NCBI GenBank assembly: GCA_016180855.1
Contig: JACPAL010000018.1
Coordinates: 17,066-81,065, forward strand
Length of the DNA: 64,000 bases
Direction of reading: 5' to 3'
From: Deltaproteobacteria bacterium
Lineage (GTDB): Bacteria > UBA10199 > JACPAL01
Positions 15,355 to 62,824 of the stretch are shown in pieces (positions within the stretch are counted from its first letter, which is position 1; each line of letters begins with the position of its first letter). The notes beneath the pieces are model-generated. The model saw only the letters and a list, made by a program, of their open reading frames with translations. It was not told the origin of the DNA and searched no databases. The translations under genes were made by a program, and so were the position numbers.

Positions 15355-16251
15355 ATGAGTCCCATCAAAGTGATGTCACTTAAAGAAGAACTCGAGGAGA
15401 TGCAAAATAACGTCGCCCTCTATAAGGCAAGCGATGAGAGACATCTTCATATGGAAGGGCCTGACGCGACCGATTATCTCCAAAGAATGGTCACAAATGA
15501 GGTCAAGACCCAGCCGATCGGCGAGGGACGTCACAACGCCCTGCTCGATCGAAAAGGTCATCCCCTCTCCCTCTTCTTTTTGATTAGGCTCTCCGAAAAC
15601 TTGTATCATCTGATTACACCACCCCAACTTAAGGAAAAGACCGCAGGGCTCTTGAAGAAATATAAGGTGATTGAGCGGTTTGAGATCAAAGATGTGAGTC
15701 AGGAGTGGGGGATTTATTGGGTAGTGGGATCTCCCGTGCCACCCGCTCTTCTGCCTGCTATTTGGCAAGAAACCATTTACAAAATCCCCGTTCGCAAAAT
15801 TCTCTATCCCAAAAATAACCCCCCTCCACTGGGAGATCTCCCTTCTGTTTCCAGACAGGCAATTGACCTCTTAAGGATGGAGGCGGGGATCCCGGAATAC
15901 GGTGTTGATATCGATGAGACGCATATTCTTCTGGAGGCCAATCTGGAGCATTGCTATAAGCGACAAAAAGGATGCTACCCCGGTCAGGAGGTGATCGAAA
16001 GAATATTGGCTTACGGTAAGGGACAGACACCGAAAAAACTTGTCACCCTGCTTGTAGAAGGAGAACGGGAGATACCCCCTAAGACAGCGATCTGGACGGC
16101 TGATAATCAAAAAGCAGGCGAAACAACCTCGGCCCTCTTTAACCCTTTAAAAAATGAGACCGTCGTCCTTGCCTACTTGGAGAATAAGTATCTTCCCCAA
16201 AGCAAGCTACATTTTGAGGATGGAACCTCTACAAAACTGCCCAGATGCTAG
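15355..16251 (+). CDS. ygfZ: YgfZ/GcvT-like folate-binding protein
   Basis: Signature KGCYPGQE near the C-terminal third, plus an aminomethyltransferase-like fold. Confidence 0.6.
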   Translation: MSPIKVMSLKEELEEMQNNVALYKASDERHLHMEGPDATDYLQRMVTNEVKTQPIGEGRHNALLDRKGHPLSLFFLIRLSENLYHLITPPQLKEKTAGLLKKYKVIERFEIKDVSQEWGIYWVVGSPVPPALLPAIWQETIYKIPVRKILYPKNNPPPLGDLPSVSRQAIDLLRMEAGIPEYGVDIDETHILLEANLEHCYKRQKGCYPGQEVIERILAYGKGQTPKKLVTLLVEGEREIPPKTAIWTADNQKAGETTSALFNPLKNETVVLAYLENKYLPQSKLHFEDGTSTKLPRC

Positions 16252-16347
16252 GCGCCCGCGAGCCAAAGACCGGAGCGTACTTGGCTGGTACGTGAGGATC
16301 TTTGGCGAGAGGGCAACAACGCAGATGGGCAGTTTTTAGAGGTTTTC
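16249..16347. repeat. family-1 related element (core gcgcccgc...ccggagcgtact...ggtacgtgagga...gcgggcaac...cagatgggcagtttttagagg) lacking TIRs
   Basis: Shares about 80 bp of core with 32905-33030 and the reverse complement of 47866-47970. Exactly spans the ygfZ-stop to PLP-enzyme-stop gap. Confidence 0.75.
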
Positions 16348-17646: not shown

Positions 17647-17804
17647 GTTATGGGGTGTGTTGAAAAATGGCTTTTGTGGACTGTTCAAAAATGCCCAGCT
17701 GCAAGACACCCCGAGGAGCCGCGACGCAGGCGTACTTGAGGGTACGTCGAGGAGCCGGCGACGAGGGGAACGCAGCAGATGGCATTTTTCAACAGTCCCT
17801 TATG
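17647..17804. repeat. family-2 MITE-like element with about 20-bp TIRs (GGGGACTGTTGAAAAATGCC) and TTATG flanks
   Basis: Near-identical to 37496-37626 apart from a 26-bp internal insertion. Fills the gap between the PLP-enzyme start and the recG stop. Confidence 0.8.
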
Positions 17805-21371: not shown

Positions 21372-21716
21372 TTAAAATTCGAAGGCCGGACGTGGCCGAT
21401 GGGCCTTTGTCAGCATCCTGTTAGCCCCTGACTCCTTCCTGTAACAGCTGGAGAGGAACAGCGATGATCTACTGAAGCAGTTCATTGTTATCCGCCTCCG
21501 CCAGAAAACCCTGCCGTCTTGCGGAAGGGAGCTCCATTTTTTGGATCTCTCCCGCTTTTTCTCTTCGATAATCTGCAGCAGATAATTCACATTCTGCTCG
21601 TTTAACGACTTAAGGAGTCGACGCGCCCCTTCAATGATCGGCTCCTCACCTCTGCATCTGGTAACAACCTTCATTTTCATGAACGGTAGGATAAGGGACC
21701 CGTCACTCCAAATCAA
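21372..21716 (-). pseudogene. in-frame-deleted remnant of a second small-protein + nucleotidyltransferase module
   Basis: The N-terminal MKMKVVTRCRGEEPIIEGARRLLKSLNEQ is paralogous to the 75-aa ORF at 22187-22414 (MKIVTKRKGRENPIEDARILQKTLNQ). It is fused directly to NVNYLLQIIEEKKRERSKK, which is paralogous to the C-terminal tail DINYLLRIIEEENREKSKK of the 168-aa NTase. Confidence 0.45.
21395..21424. repeat. solo family-1 terminal repeat (gatgggcctttgtcagcatcctgTTAG)
   Basis: Matches the right end of the 47841-47995 copy. No left partner found. Confidence 0.55.
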
Positions 21717-28304: not shown

Positions 28305-28698
28305 GCAAGCCAGCTCAATTTAGCATGTGAAAATGAGTGCCGTTGGTGAAATCTCTTTTTGACCGATAACCAGTCAACGGAGTTGTACTCTACCCCTTGG
28401 CGACCGAGTGGAAGGAGCGATACCTCAACCCGTTTCTCTTGGCCAGAATGAAGCGTGAATGTAAACCCAAGAGAAAAACCGGCGGCAGAGAGGTTTTTGG
28501 AATAAGAGAGAACCAAAAGTGCGATAAGGACTGTTAAGAAAACGATCGGTCGACGGGACATGTTCCTTGTAGGAGCAAAGAACATGCCAACAGCCGTTTG
28601 CTAACCGTCCAATAAGTCTCTATTTTTTAAGACAAATTTGAACCACCTCCAAAAAATGGGGAGAAGAGTCCCAAAACAGAGGGCCAGAAGACCTTAGC

Positions 28699-28758
28699 AG
28701 TCTGTTGACAAAGGGGTTTGAAAGAACGAAGTAGATGGGCCTTTGTCAACATCCTGTT
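28699..28758. repeat. internally deleted family-1 mini-element (about 60 bp) with degenerate TIRs and TTAG flanks on both sides
   Basis: ccTTAGcagtctgttgacaaagg ... gtagatgggcctttgtcaacatcctgTTAGg. Confidence 0.6.
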
Positions 28759-31984: not shown

Positions 31985-32837
31985 CGTTCTGGACCTGTTC
32001 TTTAATTCTCTCCAGCTCCGTCTTGAAATCGATCACGCGATGAATCAACTTTGGCCCGACCACTTTCGATCCCAGCGTGTTGATCTCGCGTCCCATCTCC
32101 TGCATGAGAAAATCAAGACGCCTCCCCTTCACGCCTGAAGATCGTAGGGCAGATTGAAACTGGGCGAGGTGACTTTCAAGACGTACAATCTCCTCCGTCA
32201 CATCAGCCCGATTCGCAGCGATTGCCGCCCCCTCCGCAATTTTTTCGTCCGGCAACGTGGTGATATCTTTTAATCGCTGAGCGACCTTCATACGATGTCG
32301 ATGCTGGTTGAAGCCGGCCTCTTTCTCGATCGCCGAGAGAGACCGGCGCAGGACCAAAAGTTTAGCAGAAAACCATTTTCGGAGATGCTCCCCTTCCCTC
32401 TTTCTCATCTTTCGAAGACGACCCAACGCCTCATCAACAACCCGGCCAAGAGGGACCCTCAATCGAGCCGTCTCCTCCCCGCCACCGGATGAAAAGGAAG
32501 AGGTTTGCCCATAAAAGGCAACGAGGTCCGCAACCTGAATGGGACCATTCAGGTGTAGCTCCTTCTGAAACCGCTTCAAAAGACGATAGGATCTCTTGAG
32601 CGCCTCAAAAGCCGACCGCTCACGACTGACGATCTCCTCCTTGATATAAAGATCAATCTTCCCCCTCTGAAACCGGCGTTTCACCCTCTCGATAATGTCC
32701 TGCTCCAGAAGGGCAATCTTTCCGGGGAGCCTGATCGACACCTCACAAAACCGGTGATTGACCGACTTCACCTCGACGGAATAAACCGCCTCTCCCGCCG
32801 CTCCTCGTGAGGAACCGTACCCCGTCATTGATTGCAT
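31977..32837 (-). CDS. yicC: YicC-family stress-induced protein
   Basis: N-terminal MQSMTGYG and conserved yicC-gmk-rel arrangement. Confidence 0.8.
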   Translation of the reverse strand: MQSMTGYGSSRGAAGEAVYSVEVKSVNHRFCEVSIRLPGKIALLEQDIIERVKRRFQRGKIDLYIKEEIVSRERSAFEALKRSYRLLKRFQKELHLNGPIQVADLVAFYGQTSSFSSGGGEETARLRVPLGRVVDEALGRLRKMRKREGEHLRKWFSAKLLVLRRSLSAIEKEAGFNQHRHRMKVAQRLKDITTLPDEKIAEGAAIAANRADVTEEIVRLESHLAQFQSALRSSGVKGRRLDFLMQEMGREINTLGSKVVGPKLIHRVIDFKTELERIKEQVQNVE

Positions 32838-32904
32838 AAGGGAACCTCTAATAATTCAAATTTTCGGCACCTCGAAAAACGGCCCAGCGGTTCGACAAGC
32901 TCAC

Positions 32905-33030
32905 CCTCCTGAGCAAAGTCGAAGGAATGCAAGGCGCCCGCAAGGCCGCGACCGGAGCGTACTTTCGTGGTACGTGAGGACGCGGACGAAGCGGGCAACA
33001 CAGCAGATGGGTAGTTTTTAGAGGTGCCCA
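32905..33030. repeat. family-1 related element with 5' cctgagcaaagtcgaagga module
   Basis: Core alignment to 16253-16345 and 47866-47970. Located upstream of yicC. Confidence 0.75.
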
Positions 33031-33033
33031 TAA

Positions 33034-47185: not shown

Positions 47186-47842
47186 TTGCCCTTACTTATG
47201 ACAAGTCATCCTTCTCGTAAAGTGTTCCTGCTGTTGGGTGCATTGTATCTAGTCGTCGGTTTTTCGCTCGGGCAGACCTCAATCCCCTCCTCCTGCGGAA
47301 CCGATACGACAAGTCAGGCAGGAAGCGGTACCTCCTCTTCGAACTCGGGAGGAAGTTCAGGGAGTTCACTAACACTCACAAGTGATGACATTACAAGCGG
47401 CGGAACAATCGCCTCCACCTTTGCAATGACCGATTGCATGGGAGGCAACCAGTCTCCCCATCTCGCCTGGTCAGGTACCCTCCCCTCCGGAACCTTGAGT
47501 CTTGCCGTGACCGTAATTGACACAAGCTTTAACAACGCCGTTCACTGGCTCCTTTACAACATCCCAACCACGTCAACGACGCTTTCGAGAAACAGTTCTC
47601 CGAGTGAAATCTCAAATACAACCCGCGAGGTGCAGAATGTCTACGGGGATATCGATTACGGCGGCCCTTGCCCGCCGACCGGCGAGAGCCATACCTACCA
47701 GTTTACAGTTTGGGCGCTTGATGTTGCCGACCTCATGAACGTCTCCGGTTTCAACGCCAACAGCGGCTCCTCCGCCTACTCGCTGCTCCAGGAGCATGAC
47801 TTGGCATCGGCCAGTTTCAACGCCACTTTCGTTGGCCCTTAA
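47186..47842 (+). CDS. YbhB/YbcL (PEBP-family) protein with N-terminal signal/lipoprotein-like anchor and Ser/Thr-rich linker
   Basis: GGNQSPHLAW, HWLLYNIP and YGGPCPP...HTYQFTVWAL PEBP motifs. Confidence 0.75.
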   Translation: MPLLMTSHPSRKVFLLLGALYLVVGFSLGQTSIPSSCGTDTTSQAGSGTSSSNSGGSSGSSLTLTSDDITSGGTIASTFAMTDCMGGNQSPHLAWSGTLPSGTLSLAVTVIDTSFNNAVHWLLYNIPTTSTTLSRNSSPSEISNTTREVQNVYGDIDYGGPCPPTGESHTYQFTVWALDVADLMNVSGFNANSGSSAYSLLQEHDLASASFNATFVGP

Positions 47843-47995
47843 CAGGATAGCGACAAAGGCCCATCTACTGCGGGCTTCGACTGAGCTCAGCCGAAGTCTT
47901 GCCCGCTTCAACCGCAATCCTCACGTACCGGTAAAGTACGCTCCGGTTGCGGCCTTGCGGGCGCCTTGCATCTGGACCTTTGTCGCTATCCTGTT
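47841..47995. repeat. family-1 MITE-like element, full copy with 17-bp perfect TIRs CAGGATAGCGACAAAGG and TTAA/TTAT flanks
   Basis: aacaggatagcgacaaaggcc at the left end and ggacctttgtcgctatcctgtt at the right. Fills the convergent PEBP / Na-Pi transporter gap exactly and supplies part of both stop codons. Confidence 0.8.
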
Positions 47996-49637
47996 ATTCG
48001 ATTTCTTTTCCCGGCATCGAGGACTTCACAATCATCATAAGCTTCGTATTGACCCGGCGAAAATTAGAGAGAAGATCAAGGTGGATCGAACTCGTTTCAA
48101 ACGCCTCCTTGATCCCCCTGTGCAATCTCTGGAGATGGCCCTCGCGATAACGGCTCTCCAATTCCTCCAGATGTTTTTCGTGACGCACAATTTTGCGCGC
48201 CAGAGATTCATCCTCCGTCGTCAGGGTCGAGAGGGCGAGTTGAAAGTTTTCCAGGACCTTGCTGTGTAAATCCTGGATCTCTTTCCAACCCTCGCCTGAG
48301 AAAACTCGTCCCTTATGGATCTTCTTCTGGGCCAGCTCCAGAATATTCTTGTTGATGATATCACCGATCTCTTCAAAATCACTCGTCATCGCGACCAGGC
48401 TGAGTTCCAGGCGTCCCTGCTCGGGATTGATTGCCTCCTGTGAAATTTTTGCAAGATAGAATTTAATCTCCCGATCCAGGATATCCACCTTATCGTCCTT
48501 CTCCTCGATCATTTCGATCAGCAACGGATCATCCTTCTCAAAGACTTCGATCAGGTCACGAAACATCTCACAGGCAATCTCTCCCATCCGAAGAATTTCG
48601 CGTTTTACATTGGCAAACGCCAGAGCGGGAGAGTCAGTGGCATCCTCCGAAAGATACTTCGGCCCAAAAAGGTCCTCGCCGGGAGGTGGAATCGGAACCA
48701 CCTTCCGGATTATCCAGGCACCCTGACGGATGAAAGGAAGAAAAAAGACAGAAAGGGCGAGGTTAAAACAGACATGGGATAAGGCAATCTGACCAGCCAC
48801 ATTTCCTGACAAGGAGAGAAGCGAGGATAACCACTCAACCCCCTTGACTGTATTGGCAAGAAAAACAAGGGCAACAGAGGCACCACTCAATTTAAAAAAC
48901 AGATGGGCAAGTGCCACCTGCCTCGCCGGAGCCCCACCACGCGCCCCGTGTAGAAAGGTCATGGCACACGTCCCAACATTCGCCCCCAAGACAAGAGGAA
49001 CGGCATGGGACATATCAATGACCTGGGAGAGCGCCATCGCAATCGTGAGTCCCAGGGTTGTCGCACTATTTTGAACCAGGGCCGTGAATCCAATTGCCAA
49101 AAGAAAACTGTAGGAAGGTTTTTCCGATAAGAGATTAAAAATTTCGACCAAAAAGTGATTTTCACGAAGGGGAGTCGTGATCTGAACCATCAACTGCATC
49201 CCCAAAAAAACAAAGCCAAAGCCCATCACAATCATACTGAGGTAGCGGATTTTTTTACTCTTAAAAAAAATCTCGATAAAGATTCCCGTCACAAGCATGA
49301 GGAGGGCATACTCCGCCACCTGCCGGATCGAAAGCAGGATGACGACGAACGCAGTCCCAATATCCGCCCCGAGGATCACCCCCATCGCCTGCTGGAGAGA
49401 AAGGACACCGCTTGTTGCAAATCCGATCAGCATAACGGTTGTCGCAACGGAGCTTTGCAGAATGAGGGTCACAAGAACACCGGTCAAGAGGGCCGAAAAT
49501 CGGTTCTCGGTGAGCGCTGAAACAAGCCGCCTCAACCGATTACCTGCCAGGAGCTGGATTCCGATGCGCGATTGGCGAATTCCATAAATGAAAATGGCAA
49601 TCGCCCCCAGAAAAGAAATAAGCGAGAAGGATGTCAA
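47994..49637 (-). CDS. Na/Pi-cotransporter II-related protein with C-terminal PhoU domains
   Basis: Duplicated NptA membrane repeats plus C-terminal PhoU-like helices. Confidence 0.8.
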   Translation of the reverse strand: MTSFSLISFLGAIAIFIYGIRQSRIGIQLLAGNRLRRLVSALTENRFSALLTGVLVTLILQSSVATTVMLIGFATSGVLSLQQAMGVILGADIGTAFVVILLSIRQVAEYALLMLVTGIFIEIFFKSKKIRYLSMIVMGFGFVFLGMQLMVQITTPLRENHFLVEIFNLLSEKPSYSFLLAIGFTALVQNSATTLGLTIAMALSQVIDMSHAVPLVLGANVGTCAMTFLHGARGGAPARQVALAHLFFKLSGASVALVFLANTVKGVEWLSSLLSLSGNVAGQIALSHVCFNLALSVFFLPFIRQGAWIIRKVVPIPPPGEDLFGPKYLSEDATDSPALAFANVKREILRMGEIACEMFRDLIEVFEKDDPLLIEMIEEKDDKVDILDREIKFYLAKISQEAINPEQGRLELSLVAMTSDFEEIGDIINKNILELAQKKIHKGRVFSGEGWKEIQDLHSKVLENFQLALSTLTTEDESLARKIVRHEKHLEELESRYREGHLQRLHRGIKEAFETSSIHLDLLSNFRRVNTKLMMIVKSSMPGKEIE

Positions 49638-59846: not shown

Positions 59847-59946
59847 AACCACTCATCGAATCGAGAAATTCCTTGTTGGTCTTTGCGTTCTGCATCTTGT
59901 CGGTCAAGAACTCCATCGCATCGACCACGTTAAGCGGTTGCAGGAC
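59847..59946 (-). pseudogene. displaced duplicate of the last 33 codons of rho
   Basis: 100 bp identical to 62825-62924, encoding [33 protein letters not shown]. About 12 nt of residual similarity (HLNR versus HLDRK) continue upstream, then the sequence is unrelated. Confidence 0.65.
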
Positions 59947-62824
59947 ACGATTCAAATGAGTAACCGTTCTACTCAGAGAGCCCACAATAACCAGGGATCG
60001 GACCGCTGTTTCCGTCAGGATCAATACAGGTTTCCGTCGGAAGACAGTCAATATCGCTCGAATCAATTCTGCCTGCCCTTGTTGGATCGCAGATGTACTC
60101 CTGCACGGAATAAATAGTACGGCCATAACTTAATCTCGAGTGACAAGAATCAGCATAAATAAATGATTGATCTAGACTATCATGTACTGTCAACGTCACG
60201 GAACCTCCAATCCCTGGCATCATTCCACCATCGCTATCATCACAGCTAAAGGTAATACCTTCGTCAATTTCCTCATTGCAGTTGTCATCCCGGCCATCCA
60301 GCCGTTCGAGTTCTATACCGGGGTTTGTAGAAGCTCTATTATCGTCACAATCCCCACCCCCAAAGGAACAAATAGAAAGTATCCCATCCGAGACCATAGC
60401 CATATTCAGGTCGCAATAGTTATCACGATCATCATCACAACCCTCATCAACTCTCCCATTACAATCATTATCAGTATTGTCGCAGATTTCAGGGGCATAA
60501 ACACAATCTGGTTCACCTAAATCAATCTGTACCACGGCTACCCTCTCCGAAGAAGTCGATGGCCCGACAAAGCGGACCTGCCATCCAAGACCTGTCGTAC
60601 ATGTTTCGCCAGGAAGGATAAAACCATCAAAAAGGTCATCCCTCCAATCCTCGCGAGAGTTGGGGCTACAATCAAGCAAATAGGTATGGCGGCCATTCTC
60701 GTCTGTTGTACATCTCAAGAAAAGAACGCCGATCGTTGCAAAATCAAAAGAATACAGATTTTCGAGACGAGATTGATCTGCAGAAAGGATGGCATCCATA
60801 ATTATCATGCGATCATAACCAAGGGGCTCCCTGTATTCAACGGATAGGGTGTCACAAGGTTCCGTGACGAAGCGTTCTGCCCGGTAATCGTGAACGACGC
60901 CACTGGTCAGGGCATTATCTACTTCAAGCTGGATACATTGAGGATCGGTACTACCAGCTTCAACGGCCCCCAAGAGATCGGGGAGAGCAGAAGATAAACC
61001 AGCCTCCATCTCCAACCACCCCAATTTTTCCTTATAAGCACAGTTAAAATGGCCATGGCCAGGGTAGGCAGCCATCGTATCAAAGGGGTCCCCATAATCC
61101 GACCTCTCAAGACAACTCCCCCCAAAGACCGACTCGCCACAATCGAGGTCATGCGCATGATTCAAACCTAAGACATGCCCCCCTTCATGAAGGATAGTTT
61201 CATCATCAAAATGGTTACGCCCCATCGTGATGGTGTGCAAGGCAACCAACCCATCATCCGTGGGCCACTCATGCCTCCCTAAATATCTGCCATTGCCTGC
61301 AGCGGTAGGATACAAAAGAAGCCAATCATAATTGGCAAAGTTCACCTGATCCTCACAGAGACGGATCATAGTTGGAATGATAAGACCAGAAGAGATCGAC
61401 GGTCGCGTGCTATCTGCATAGGCCTCACAAACATCAAATCCTATGGAAAACTGACCAAAGGAAAGTTCTCTGAAGCTCTCTTCGGCCGATCTTGTCTCAC
61501 GATCAACCGTCGCCCGATCACTGATCGCCGCCTCATAAGGATCATTTTGCCAATGAACATACAAAACAATCCCTCTGGCGCCAGGACCCACTGATAAATT
61601 CACTAAGCTCCGAAATTCGTCTGGAAGAGTTTCATCGCTCAAGATAGTGGGATCGTTTAAATCCACTAAAGAATAACTCTGCAACACAGCCCCCATTTCC
61701 AATAACATTACAGCAAGGGAATTCATCTCAACAAAATTCATATCGGCGAGGAAGGTCGTGTCGAGATGAGCAAAGGCTACCGGGTCGCTAAATTGACTCT
61801 TAAAACTTTCATAGAAAGCAGTGGCTGCTTTGCCCACCTCAGAACACCAATTTTCCCCTTCAAGTTGCCTGAAAAACGCCATCTGATCTGAAATCAGATC
61901 AAGTAATTTCCCCTCCCCGATGAACTTTTCATAAAGCGCAGGACTTAAGTTCCCAACCCTTAAGATCGCTTGCTCAAGTTGCTCGAGTCTTTGGGGCCAT
62001 ACCAGCTTGAACTCCTCACGAAACAGTTGATTAACAAGACGAGGCGCCCGATGACTAAAATTCGCAATCGCTATTTTGGCCAAATCAGACTCGCTTTCTT
62101 TAATCAAATCCCCTTTCAGAACAGAAAGAATCTTGGCTATTTCATTGATCTTCGATACTTCCGGGGTACATTGAACTGATCCAAACTCAATAAGATCTTT
62201 TGATAGAAGTTGCTCCAGTTCCGCTGCCTCACAAAGGGCAATTTCTCTGGATAGACCAACGCTGTCCATCTCCTCTTCCAACGATTTTCGGGATTCACGA
62301 AGAACGGTGAGAAAATTTTCCATCGCCAGTTTTCCGCCCATTAACTTTTTCATCTCTTCCTCAATTCTTCTCCCCTCAATAATAAAAAGAAGAATCATCT
62401 CATTATCGAGAATCGCTCCTTCTTCCATCAGTCGCATCATCTCTGACTCTTTTTCCAGTAATCCCTGGATTCCTGACTCGACCTCTACCAGTCTCTTTTC
62501 AACTTCATCTTGTTTGAAGCGGACGGTTTCAAGGCGGGAGGATATCAGAGAGAGGGGGGGGGTACCCTCCGGCGGAAAGGGGCAGCTAAACGCCCAAAGT
62601 TGGTTTGGCAGGGAGAAAACAAACAGGAGAACAACCAGGATCGGTATGTTGCGTGGCATAATCACCTCCCGTGAATGGTAGATATGCCATATTCATGCCA
62701 AATTCTGATTGTATAAAACTAGGTGATCAACTTTATGAAACTATTGTTAAATCTGAGTGTGGTCTTGTCTCTTTGTGAAGAGTAAAACGAGAAATGAAGT
62801 TCTGGTGAAAGAAAGTCTATTCTC
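59947..62824 (-). mobile_element. AT-rich single-gene islet inserted at the 3' end of rho, bounded by 100-bp direct repeats; no integrase present
   Basis: Perfect direct repeats at 59847-59946 and 62825-62924. The interior GC is about 44% against about 53% in the flanks. It carries only the metalloprotease gene and its AT-rich promoter. Confidence 0.5.
59969..62665 (-). CDS. secreted metzincin-like zinc metalloprotease with N-terminal coiled-coil region and C-terminal MopE-like Cys/Asp-rich repeats
   Basis: Signal peptide, HEGGHVLGLNHAHD (HExxHxxGxxH) and repeats such as CDDNRASTNPGIELERLDGRDDNCNEEIDEG. RBS GGGAGGTGA upstream. AT-rich (about 44% GC) relative to the flanks. Confidence 0.75.
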   Translation of the reverse strand: MIMPRNIPILVVLLFVFSLPNQLWAFSCPFPPEGTPPLSLISSRLETVRFKQDEVEKRLVEVESGIQGLLEKESEMMRLMEEGAILDNEMILLFIIEGRRIEEEMKKLMGGKLAMENFLTVLRESRKSLEEEMDSVGLSREIALCEAAELEQLLSKDLIEFGSVQCTPEVSKINEIAKILSVLKGDLIKESESDLAKIAIANFSHRAPRLVNQLFREEFKLVWPQRLEQLEQAILRVGNLSPALYEKFIGEGKLLDLISDQMAFFRQLEGENWCSEVGKAATAFYESFKSQFSDPVAFAHLDTTFLADMNFVEMNSLAVMLLEMGAVLQSYSLVDLNDPTILSDETLPDEFRSLVNLSVGPGARGIVLYVHWQNDPYEAAISDRATVDRETRSAEESFRELSFGQFSIGFDVCEAYADSTRPSISSGLIIPTMIRLCEDQVNFANYDWLLLYPTAAGNGRYLGRHEWPTDDGLVALHTITMGRNHFDDETILHEGGHVLGLNHAHDLDCGESVFGGSCLERSDYGDPFDTMAAYPGHGHFNCAYKEKLGWLEMEAGLSSALPDLLGAVEAGSTDPQCIQLEVDNALTSGVVHDYRAERFVTEPCDTLSVEYREPLGYDRMIIMDAILSADQSRLENLYSFDFATIGVLFLRCTTDENGRHTYLLDCSPNSREDWRDDLFDGFILPGETCTTGLGWQVRFVGPSTSSERVAVVQIDLGEPDCVYAPEICDNTDNDCNGRVDEGCDDDRDNYCDLNMAMVSDGILSICSFGGGDCDDNRASTNPGIELERLDGRDDNCNEEIDEGITFSCDDSDGGMMPGIGGSVTLTVHDSLDQSFIYADSCHSRLSYGRTIYSVQEYICDPTRAGRIDSSDIDCLPTETCIDPDGNSGPIPGYCGLSE

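What the first reader, a model, noticed from the sequence alone, without database searches (positions are those of the whole stretch)
47841..47995. Family-1 MITE-like element with perfect 17-bp TIRs and TTAN flanks filling a convergent gene gap exactly
The full copy carries CAGGATAGCGACAAAGG inverted at both ends and is flanked by TTAA and TTAT. The TAA of the PEBP gene and the stop of the Na/Pi transporter are formed at the element edges. Related copies are: a mini version at 28699-28758 (TTAG flanks on both sides), a solo end at 21395-21424, and TIR-less core copies at 16249-16347 and 32905-33030. The core is GC-rich and internally palindromic (cgactgagctcagtcg; ggagcgtac...gtacgtgagg), so it could act as a bidirectional terminator or be an expressed small RNA. 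TTAN target duplication suggests IS630/Tc1-like or piggyBac-like mobilisation.
Basis: seen in the sequence. Interest (0 to 1): 0.55.

Follow-up and report, generated by a model that had tools for sequence, protein, structure and literature searches.

The report
New bacterial MITE wedged between stop codons
A 151-bp hairpin-forming miniature transposon lies exactly between the stop codons of two convergent genes in an uncultured groundwater bacterium, and it belongs to a recently mobile repeat family that duplicates 4 bp on insertion and tends to land on stop codons, so it is a well-supported new example of a known kind of element.

Summary
Window 47843-47993 is a 151-bp element with perfect 17-bp terminal inverted repeats (TIRs). 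It fills the whole gap between the PEBP stop (TAA) and the Na/Pi-PhoU stop.

It is a non-autonomous transposon (MITE) from a superfamily with at least 7 copies or fragments in this 64-kb window. More copies occur in two other MAGs and about 27 metagenome loci. The family makes 4-bp direct target duplications, mostly YTAR (CTAA, CTAG, TTAA, TTAG, also GTAG and TTAT).

A sibling copy (32840-33029) has a clean empty site, TAG-TTAT-GCA, in a 99.5%-identical strain. The same strain lacks the reported copy, but not cleanly: 11 unrelated bases sit there instead. The reported copy also lacks the family's outer terminal module, so its borders were probably reshaped later.

A 4-bp YTAR duplication fits IS5-type transposases. 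It does not fit IS630/Tc1 (2-bp TA) or piggyBac (TTAA only). No transposase was found.

YTAR holds stop codons on both strands. In 11 of 17 independent insertions a long ORF's stop lies inside the duplication. This accounts for the "exact fill".

The "TIR-less" copies have their own, different TIRs. The core is a covarying hairpin. Nothing supports a terminator or a known RNA family.

The parts
47843..47993 (.). The reported MITE copy ('A'), 151 bp. Its S-type end is on the left on the plus strand. It lacks the outer terminal module of the canonical family.
   Evidence: (I12); identical in L048 and L001; absent in L005
47843..47859 (+). Left TIR, CAGGATAGCGACAAAGG.
47977..47993 (-). Right TIR, a perfect inverted copy of the left TIR.
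47839..47842 (.). Left 4-bp flank TTAA. It contains the PEBP stop codon TAA.
47994..47997 (.). Right 4-bp flank TTAT. TTA is the stop codon (TAA) of the Na/Pi-PhoU gene on the minus strand.
47917..47971 (-). Conserved core hairpin (GCCCGC..CCGCA..GGAGCGTAC-loop-GTACGTGAGG..TGCGG..GCGGGC), shared with the other subfamilies.
   Evidence: I1, I2
47875..47896 (.). Accessory hairpin cttcgactgagctcagccgaag, an optional module. Copy C has a similar module on the other side of its core.
47222..47842 (+). PEBP/PBP-family gene. The called product is 206 aa; the longest ORF starts at 47186.
   Evidence: PF01161
47994..49637 (-). Na/Pi cotransporter-PhoU gene.
   Evidence: PF02690, PF01895
28698..28756 (+). 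59-bp internally deleted mini copy. It keeps the outer TIR and the S end. TSD is TTAG/TTAG (28694-97 and 28757-60).
21398..21420 (+). Solo S-end fragment followed by TTAG.
   Evidence: (D5)
32840..33029 (+). Sibling copy 'C' (190 bp, second TIR subtype, double TIR on the left). TSD is ATAA on the plus strand (TTAT on the minus strand) at 32836-39 and 33030-33. A clean empty site exists in another strain.
16224..16346 (+). Sibling copy 'B' (second TIR subtype, no outer module). It encodes the last 9 codons and the stop of the gene 15355..16251.
17652..17799 (+). Sibling copy 'D2a' (third TIR subtype, GGGACTGTTGAAAAATGCC, double TIR on the left). TSD is TTAT/TTAT (17648-51 and 17800-03).
   Evidence: (D2)
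37500..37622 (+). Sibling copy 'D2b'. TSD is TTAT/TTAT (37496-99 and 37623-26). The right TSD copy holds the stop of the BacA gene 37623..38429 (minus strand).
   Evidence: (D2)
37468..37495 (+). Solo right end of the second subtype, lying directly against the left TSD copy of D2b.
   Evidence: (D3)
40167..40192 (+). Solo end of the third subtype.
   Evidence: (I7, I14)

Best explanation
The feature is one copy of a miniature inverted-repeat transposable element. This is a non-coding, non-autonomous derivative of a DDE-type insertion sequence, and it moves when a transposase encoded elsewhere acts on its terminal repeats.

The canonical family member is about 150 bp. It has one about 17-bp terminal repeat at one end (the S end) and two direct copies of that repeat (inner and outer, 9 nt apart) at the other end. 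The middle is a GC-rich hairpin core.

Insertion duplicates 4 bp of target, usually YTAR. This is the behaviour documented for IS5-type transposases. YTAR contains a stop codon on each strand, and the duplication restores the flanking sequence. An insertion at a gene's stop codon therefore changes no protein, and such insertions survive preferentially. Where two convergent genes end close together, the element ends up filling the gap exactly.

Shown: mobility (presence/absence between strains that are 99-99.6% identical), the 4-bp duplication with a clean empty site for a sibling copy, the multi-genome distribution, the stop-codon association, and the covarying hairpin.

Inferred: the IS5-type nature of the mobilising enzyme, and the history of this particular copy. 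The copy lacks the outer terminal module, and its empty allele differs by an 11-bp block. It probably inserted at or near the PEBP stop and was then trimmed by one or two small deletions. Those deletions brought the inner repeat up against the Na/Pi stop.
For: - TIRs and the exact fill of the gap.
- The same TIR plus core architecture occurs in two other MAGs (sequences) and in about 27 of 32 metagenome loci.
- At least 14 independent insertions have identical 4-bp flanks on both sides: CTAA, CTAG, TTAA, TTAG, GTAG. The two mismatching cases, L028 and L044, share one flank with other loci and look like chimeric assemblies.
- Clean empty site for copy C. L049 (GCA_016202325.1) and L050 read GAGTAG-TTAT-GCAATC. 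The window reads TTAT-[190 bp]-TTAT.
- Copy A is absent from L005, whose flanks are 99.0-99.6% identical. It is present and identical in L048 and L001.
- Short-read contigs end inside the copies, as expected for a multi-copy repeat.
- IS5 produces 4-bp YTAR duplications (PMC5009759).
- In 11 of 17 unique insertions, an open frame of at least 70 codons has its stop inside the duplication. The figure is 20.5% for background YTAR sites (p about 1e-4). On crude gene calls, 15% of non-coding plus stop-codon YTAR sites are stop-codon sites.
- The hairpin is conserved by covariation. 92.9% of cells are paired and 16 of 36 pairs have compensatory changes; 0 of 500 shuffles reached this, and slid controls gave 3-7.
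Against: - No transposase with matching ends was found. There are no inverted TIR pairs 0.5-3.5 kb apart in any locus. tblastn with E. coli InsH gave no hit in the window or the loci. blastn against plasmids gave nothing.
- The flanks of copy A match at only 3 of 4 positions (TTAA/TTAT). Its empty allele (ccctTGAgcggtcatCTAttc) is not the simple pre-insertion state, so its own insertion event cannot be reconstructed in one step.
- The F1 TIR starts with CAGG, not the GG/GA typical of IS5-group ends (my knowledge of ISfinder conventions). The only similarity to the E. coli IS5 inverted repeat is 10 of 13 bases in the inner part. That was read post hoc and is a lead, not a test.
- Three TIR subtypes share one core, which is unusual for MITEs that arise independently from different parent IS elements.
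Confidence: 0.82

Rival explanations
1. The element is an IS630/Tc1-mariner-type MITE that duplicates only TA inside an NTAN target.
For: All flanks contain a central TA. The outer TIR starts with CAGT, as Tc1-like ends do (my knowledge). The right junction of copy A (CCTG-T-TA-ttc, against CTAttc in the empty allele) could be read as a TA duplication with an element-borne T.
Against: Positions 1 and 4 of the 4-bp flank vary between insertions, but they match on the two sides of each insertion: GTAG/GTAG, CTAA/CTAA, CTAG/CTAG, TTAA/TTAA, TTAG/TTAG. The empty site of copy C holds a single TTAT that is present twice in the filled site. Under a TA-only model the element termini would be T...T and would not be inverted.
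Confidence: 0.04
2. Primarily a host-functional structured element, such as an RNA hairpin acting as a bidirectional terminator, an mRNA stabiliser or processing site, or a small RNA. Transposon-like spread would be secondary.
For: - Folding is very stable: -82.4 and -97.5 kcal/mol on the two strands, z = -10 and -12.
- The stems covary and the hairpin tip GCGTAC...GTACG is nearly invariant across subfamilies with different TIRs.
- One strand folds better in all 11 family members, by 3-19 kcal/mol, because of G-U pairs.
- Known MITE transcripts (Correia, ERIC) do affect the mRNA of adjacent genes (review PMC2229807).
Against: - There is no U-tract after the stem, and the terminator scan does not flag the element.
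- Rfam gives no match.
- Crude ORF calls show no orientation bias relative to flanking genes: 7 co-directional one way, 7 the other, 5 convergent, 3 divergent.
- Copy C sits in a 2-nt gap inside an operon upstream of yicC-gmk-relA. A strong terminator there would be polar (inference).
- A nearly identical strain does without copies A and C.
Confidence: 0.12
3. A REP/REPIN-type palindromic repeat spread by a RAYT (IS200/IS605-like tyrosine transposase), or a chance palindrome.
For: The elements are GC-rich, imperfect, intergenic palindromes, they contain a GTAG motif near the stem (GCAGTAGATGG), and they are built in a mosaic, modular way.
Against: There are defined TIR termini with 4-bp target duplications and a clean empty site. 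REPs do not produce these (my knowledge; REP/RAYT background in PMC2817692, listed). Chance is excluded by the shuffles and by copies in many other genomes.
Confidence: 0.02

Closest known systems
IS5-group insertion sequences (IS5 family) and MITEs derived from them
   Same: They make a 4-bp direct target duplication with consensus YTAR (PMC5009759; here). The ends are short TIRs. Insertions are biased to non-coding DNA.
   Different: No transposase gene was found. The TIRs start with CAGG, GGCACC or GGGAC, and they resemble the E. coli IS5 inverted repeat only weakly (10 of 13 in the inner part, post hoc). One end carries two direct copies of the terminal repeat.
IS711 / IS427-group elements
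   Same: They also choose YTAR as the target (PMC2266754).
   Different: IS711 is reported to duplicate only the TA. Here all four bases are duplicated.
Correia/NEMIS elements of Neisseria, and ERIC, RUP and YPAL repeats (bacterial MITEs reviewed in PMC2229807)
   Same: They are 100-170 bp, have TIRs, produce target duplications, are mostly intergenic and often lie right next to genes. The whole element folds into a long hairpin. Filled and empty sites occur between close relatives. Some supply open reading frame ends to host genes.
   Different: Most of these are A+T-rich with a TA duplication. This family is GC-rich (0.60 against 0.51 for the window), makes a 4-bp YTAR duplication, has an asymmetric double terminal repeat, and shares a covarying core among subfamilies with different TIRs.
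Eukaryotic piggyBac and PIF/Harbinger-Tourist MITEs
   Same: Their targets are centred on TTAA or TAA, and they are MITE-sized derivatives.
   Different: piggyBac uses TTAA strictly and PIF/Harbinger duplicates 3 bp (my knowledge). Here CTAG, CTAA, GTAG and TTAT also occur and 4 bp are duplicated.

Membership tests
Bacterial MITE (non-autonomous DDE-transposon derivative) | Small (under about 300 bp), with no coding capacity of its own | tested here: met
   The element is 151 bp. Only spurious ORFs that run in from the flanks overlap it.
Bacterial MITE (non-autonomous DDE-transposon derivative) | Terminal inverted repeats | tested here: met
   The TIR is perfect over 17 bp. The same ends occur in other genomes.
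Bacterial MITE (non-autonomous DDE-transposon derivative) | Target-site duplication of fixed length (tested for the family) | tested here: met
   At least 14 insertions have identical 4-bp flanks. Copy C has a clean empty site with a single TTAT.
Bacterial MITE (non-autonomous DDE-transposon derivative) | Target-site duplication at this particular copy | tested here: inconclusive
   The flanks are TTAA/TTAT, matching at 3 of 4. The empty allele L005 has 11 other bases (GAGCGGTCATC) in place of the element, so it is not a simple precursor.
Bacterial MITE (non-autonomous DDE-transposon derivative) | Multiple dispersed copies, and presence/absence polymorphism between close relatives | tested here: met
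   nhmmer finds 7 matches in the window, and repeat search adds 2 solo ends. Copies occur in other MAGs and metagenomes. Copies A and C are absent from GCA_016202325.1, which is 99-99.6% identical.
Bacterial MITE (non-autonomous DDE-transposon derivative) | A cognate autonomous IS with the same TIRs | tested here: inconclusive
   None was found in the window or in the 57 related loci fetched, or in plasmids. Whole genomes of the hosts could not be scanned.
IS5 family, IS5 group (as the mobilising enzyme) | 4-bp duplication at YTAR | tested here: met
   compared with PMC5009759. Some TSDs are GTAG or TTAT, which fall outside strict YTAR.
IS5 family, IS5 group (as the mobilising enzyme) | TIRs similar to those of a family member, and a DDE_Tnp_1-type transposase in the host | tested here: inconclusive
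   The only similarity is a post-hoc 10 of 13 match to the inner part of the E. coli IS5 inverted repeat. tblastn with InsH gave no hit in the available DNA.
IS630 / Tc1-mariner | 2-bp TA duplication | tested here: not met
   All four bases are duplicated, including the variable first and fourth positions.
piggyBac | Strict TTAA target | tested here: not met
   CTAA, CTAG, TTAG, GTAG and TTAT duplications are seen.
REP/REPIN (RAYT-mobilised) | Short palindromes inserted without target duplication | tested here: not met
   4-bp duplications and defined TIR ends are present.
Intrinsic (Rho-independent) terminator | A GC-rich hairpin immediately followed by a U-tract | tested here: not met
   The terminator scan does not flag the element. 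The bases after the stem are coding sequence of the facing gene.
Any curated RNA family (Rfam 15) | A covariance-model match | tested here: not met
   No hit at gathering score in the window, and none at E<=5 in 47700-48150.

The most novel reading that the evidence does not exclude
The three-way hairpin core is kept by compensatory changes, has a nearly invariant GCGTAC-loop-GTACG tip, and folds consistently better on one strand. It is shared by subfamilies whose terminal repeats differ. It could therefore be a functional module in its own right, for example a binding or processing site needed for transposition or used by the host. The strong excess of insertions exactly at stop codons could reflect active targeting of gene ends rather than mere survival of harmless insertions.
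Probability: 0.15. Interest if true: 0.6.

Novelty: new member of a known kind. Interest (0 to 1): 0.33.

Why it matters
It documents a recently active, previously unannotated MITE superfamily in an uncultured groundwater lineage labelled 'Deltaproteobacteria bacterium'.

It gives a simple mechanistic reason why such elements can sit flush between genes. A 4-bp YTAR duplication regenerates stop codons, and in one case a start-codon context.

It is also a practical warning. These repeats break short-read contigs, create chimeric joins, and can add spurious ORFs or altered C-termini to gene calls in MAGs.

It is not a new kind of system.

Tried and rejected
- Rfam, at gathering score on the whole window and at E<=5 on the region: nothing.
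- Search for an autonomous parent:
  - Inverted TIR pairs 0.5-3.5 kb apart in all loci gave only neighbouring MITEs.
  - tblastn with E. coli IS5 InsH against the window and all loci gave nothing below E = 0.3.
  - blastn of a canonical element against 72,556 plasmids gave only a 25-nt chance match.
  - The viral-contig scan gave two chance matches without the element architecture.
- TA-only duplication model. I considered it first because every right flank in the first sample began with T. I rejected it once more copies and the empty site were seen.
- Orientation bias relative to the upstream gene. A first count of ORFs ending in the duplication suggested a bias. Classifying both neighbours gave 7 against 7, so I dropped it.
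- The 11-bp filler of the empty allele (TGAGCGGTCATCTA) has no other copy in the window, so there is no sign of templated repair. SNPs do not cluster near the junction, so there is no sign of an imported recombinant block.
- Look-ups of the PLP-enzyme gene between copies B and D2a, to find their empty sites, failed because there was no exact protein match. Look-ups next to the mini copy and D2b returned only contigs that end inside the element.

Full report
**Observation**

The sequence at 47839-47997 reads TTAA-CAGGATAGCGACAAAGG...CCTTTGTCGCTATCCTG-TTAT.
- The PEBP-family ORF ends with TAA at 47840-47842.
- The Na/Pi cotransporter-PhoU ORF on the minus strand ends at 47994-47996 (Pfam domains).
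- The 151-bp element (47843-47993) is therefore the whole convergent gap.
- The inverted repeat is perfect over 17 bp, over 20 bp with the flanking TAA/TTA, and over 24 bp with one mismatch (I12).
- The TIR 17-mer has 4 matches with up to 3 mismatches in the window, against 0.15 expected.

**The family inside the window**

nhmmer with a family profile finds seven copies or fragments:
- A: 47843-47993, minus orientation.
- D2a: 17652-17799.
- C: 32840-33029.
- B: 16224-16346.
- D2b: 37500-37622.
- Mini copy: 28698-28756.
- Solo end: 21398-21420.

The repeat finder adds solo ends at 37468-37495 and 40167-40192.

All subtypes share three things: an A-rich stretch, the inner motif CCCATCTGC, and a GC-rich hairpin core with the tip GCGTAC-loop-GTACG.

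**The family outside the window**

A TIR pattern scan of one genome per species found seven true copies in two other MAGs, plus one chance hit in Ferruginibacter. The two MAGs are 'Deltaproteobacteria bacterium RIFCSPLOWO2_02_FULL_50_16' and 'uncultured Pseudomonadota bacterium binchicken_co21_281'.

A metagenome scan found 32 loci, and about 27 of them carry the full architecture.

The canonical element is about 150 bp and is built as follows:
- An S end: CAGGATGTTGACAAAGGCCCATCT.
- The core.
- An inner inverted copy of the terminal repeat.
- A 9-nt spacer.
- An outer copy of the terminal repeat.

Longer variants (175-227 bp) carry extra internal hairpin modules. The window's mini copy is an internal deletion of an L006-like element. 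Copy A lacks the outer module.

**Target duplication**

In at least 14 independent insertions the four bases on the two sides are identical direct repeats: CTAA, CTAG, TTAA, TTAG or GTAG. The window's D2a and D2b have TTAT/TTAT. Two mismatching cases (L028, L044) share one flank with another locus and are best read as chimeric assemblies.

The decisive case is copy C. L049 (GCA_016202325.1) and L050 (a Logan assembly of SRR12113385) read ...CTGGAGTAG-TTAT-GCAATCAATG.... The window reads ...GAGTAG-TTAT-[190 bp]-TTAT-GCAATCAATG.... The family therefore transposes with a 4-bp duplication.

A 4-bp duplication at YTAR is the documented signature of IS5 (PMC5009759). IS711 uses YTAR but is reported to duplicate only TA (PMC2266754). 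A TA-only (IS630/Tc1) model and a strict TTAA (piggyBac) model are both contradicted.

**The reported copy**

- L005 (GCA_016202325.1, JACQOW010000029.1) is 99.6% identical over 6774 bp on the Na/Pi side and 99.0% identical over 1089 bp on the PEBP side. SNPs are evenly spread.
- L005 lacks the element. It reads ggccctTGAgcggtcatCTAttc where the window reads ggccctTAA[151 bp]TTAttc. Both proteins end identically in the two alleles (...FVGP and ...GKEIE).
- L048 (GCA_016187815.1) and L001 (Logan assembly of SRR12113431) carry the identical element.
- The copy is therefore a strain-level polymorphism, but the empty allele is not its simple precursor. Eleven bases (GAGCGGTCATC) are replaced, and both stop codons differ (TGA and TAG in L005, TAA and TAA in the window).
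- The copy also lacks the outer terminal module. The most economical reading is inference: insertion at or beside the PEBP stop, followed by one or two small deletions. Those deletions removed the outer module, one duplication copy and the 8-bp spacer, and a stop-codon SNP or two occurred as well.
- The resemblance TTAA/TTAT may therefore be only partly a duplication.
- The filler has no other copy in the window.

**Why the fit is exact**

YTAR contains TAA or TAG on the plus strand and TAA or TAG on the minus strand. Because 4 bp are duplicated, an insertion into the stop codon of a gene leaves that gene unchanged.
- In 11 of 17 unique F1-subtype (CAGGATGTTGACAAAGG-type TIR) insertions, an open frame of at least 70 codons has its stop inside the duplication. 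L031 has this on both sides, like the window copy.
- The background for YTAR sites in the same DNA is 20.5% (binomial p about 1e-4).
- With crude gene calls, stop-codon sites make up only 15% of the YTAR sites that do not interrupt a gene (p about 6e-6). The gene calls are rough, so I treat the excess as real but its size as approximate.
- D2b's right duplication copy holds the stop of the BacA gene.
- Copy C lies in the 2-nt gap between a stop and the next ATG. Its duplication rebuilds TTATG.

**Structure**

Both strands of the copy fold far better than shuffles. The minimum free energies are -82.4 kcal/mol (z = -10) and -97.5 kcal/mol (z = -12). The predicted shape is a 24-bp terminal stem closing a junction with the core hairpin and an accessory hairpin.

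I aligned 11 distinct family members from three TIR subtypes.
- The consensus structure has 36 pairs, 92.9% of cells are paired, and 16 pairs have changes on both sides.
- 0 of 500 shuffles reach these values, and slid controls give 3-7 such pairs.
- The tip helix is conserved in sequence rather than by covariation.
- In all 11 sequences the same strand folds better, by 3-19 kcal/mol. The sequences are related, so this is not 11 independent observations.

Crude classification of neighbouring ORFs shows no orientation bias: 7, 7, 5 and 3 for the four arrangements. Nothing matches Rfam, and the element is not terminator-like by the simple scan.

The hairpin may matter for transposition, for DNA or RNA stability, or for RNA processing, as reported for other bacterial MITEs (PMC2229807). 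None of this is testable here.

**Transposase**

None was found.
- No inverted TIR pairs 0.5-3.5 kb apart occur, other than neighbouring MITEs.
- tblastn with E. coli InsH gave no hit in the window or any locus.
- blastn against plasmids gave no match.
- The viral-contig matches are chance.

The inner 13 bases of copy A's TIR (GCGACAAAGGCCC) match the E. coli IS5 inverted repeat (GCGAACAAGTCCC) at 10 of 13 positions. This was noticed post hoc and is only a lead. Other families that make 4-bp duplications (IS701, IS1380, ISAzo13; my knowledge of ISfinder tables) are not excluded.

**Host**

The proteins are annotated 'MAG: Deltaproteobacteria bacterium'. The nearest other Na/Pi homologue is only 68% identical. 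The source assemblies come from one set of groundwater-type runs (SRR121134xx; GCA_0161-0162 series).

**Verdict**

The finding is a real and well-supported MITE of a new family, in a known category. The mechanism should be corrected to an IS5-like 4-bp YTAR duplication. The terminator or small-RNA idea has no support.

Noticed in passing
window 16224-16346 with gene 15355..16251 (+): Copy B has no outer module and no recognisable duplication on its left. The YgfZ-like ORF runs into it, so the element encodes the last 9 residues (GTSTKLPRC) and the TAG stop of that protein.
   Followed up: partly
window 32836-33033 (minus-strand operon: FHA-domain gene, then yicC-gmk-relA): Copy C moved the native GGAG Shine-Dalgarno of the yicC-like gene 194 bp further from the start codon. 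The element's own terminal sequence AGAGGTTCCC now places GAGG 7 nt before the ATG. This subtype's end may therefore supply a ribosome-binding site.
   Followed up: partly
window 37468-37499: A solo end of the second subtype lies directly against the TTAT duplication of D2b. Two family members appear to have used the same target.
   Followed up: no
L001, L051-L057 (Logan contigs); L028, L044: Short-read contigs end 27-116 nt into the elements. Two metagenome contigs join the left flank of one insertion to the right flank of another. The repeat fragments and mis-joins assemblies.
   Followed up: partly
L028, L031, L039 (JGI contigs Ga0209212_1153648, Ga0155208_1045, Ga0156191_1003): These are longer variants (199-227 bp). 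They carry an extra internal module with its own palindrome (GTACGTGTACACACGTCCCTTTAGGGA) and a CCCCATAAAGAGGGG hairpin, so the family is modular.
   Followed up: no
All 11 sequences of alignment A1: The same strand always folds better as RNA, by 3-19 kcal/mol, because of G-U pairs such as the conserved one in the tip helix. This is unexplained, because orientation relative to transcription is unbiased.
   Followed up: partly
window 47843-47859 and 47977-47993: Both arms of copy A carry AGC where the family consensus has GTT (CAGGAT-AGC-GAC against CAGGAT-GTT-GAC). That is three adjacent changes mirrored in both arms. No other copy of this variant was seen, so it is unclear whether the arms are homogenised or the variant is a subfamily.
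   Followed up: partly
L003 5650-5835 (GCA_016180845.1, 63% aa relative): In this relative the same PEBP-Na/Pi convergent gap holds a called 61-aa ORF with no Pfam hit, rather than a MITE.
   Followed up: no
window 59847-59946 and 62825-62924: A 100-nt perfect direct repeat lies 2978 bp apart, inside or next to two long minus-strand ORFs (59969..62665 and 62823..63968) (D1, 10). It is unrelated to the MITE family.
   Followed up: no
L048 (GCA_016187815.1, JACPIZ010000042.1): In this assembly the Na/Pi and SMC genes are each split into several called fragments, and its alignment to the window is broken into four blocks (99.7-99.9% identical) with 50-250-bp stretches of the window skipped between them. 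It looks like a lower-quality assembly of nearly the same strain.
   Followed up: no
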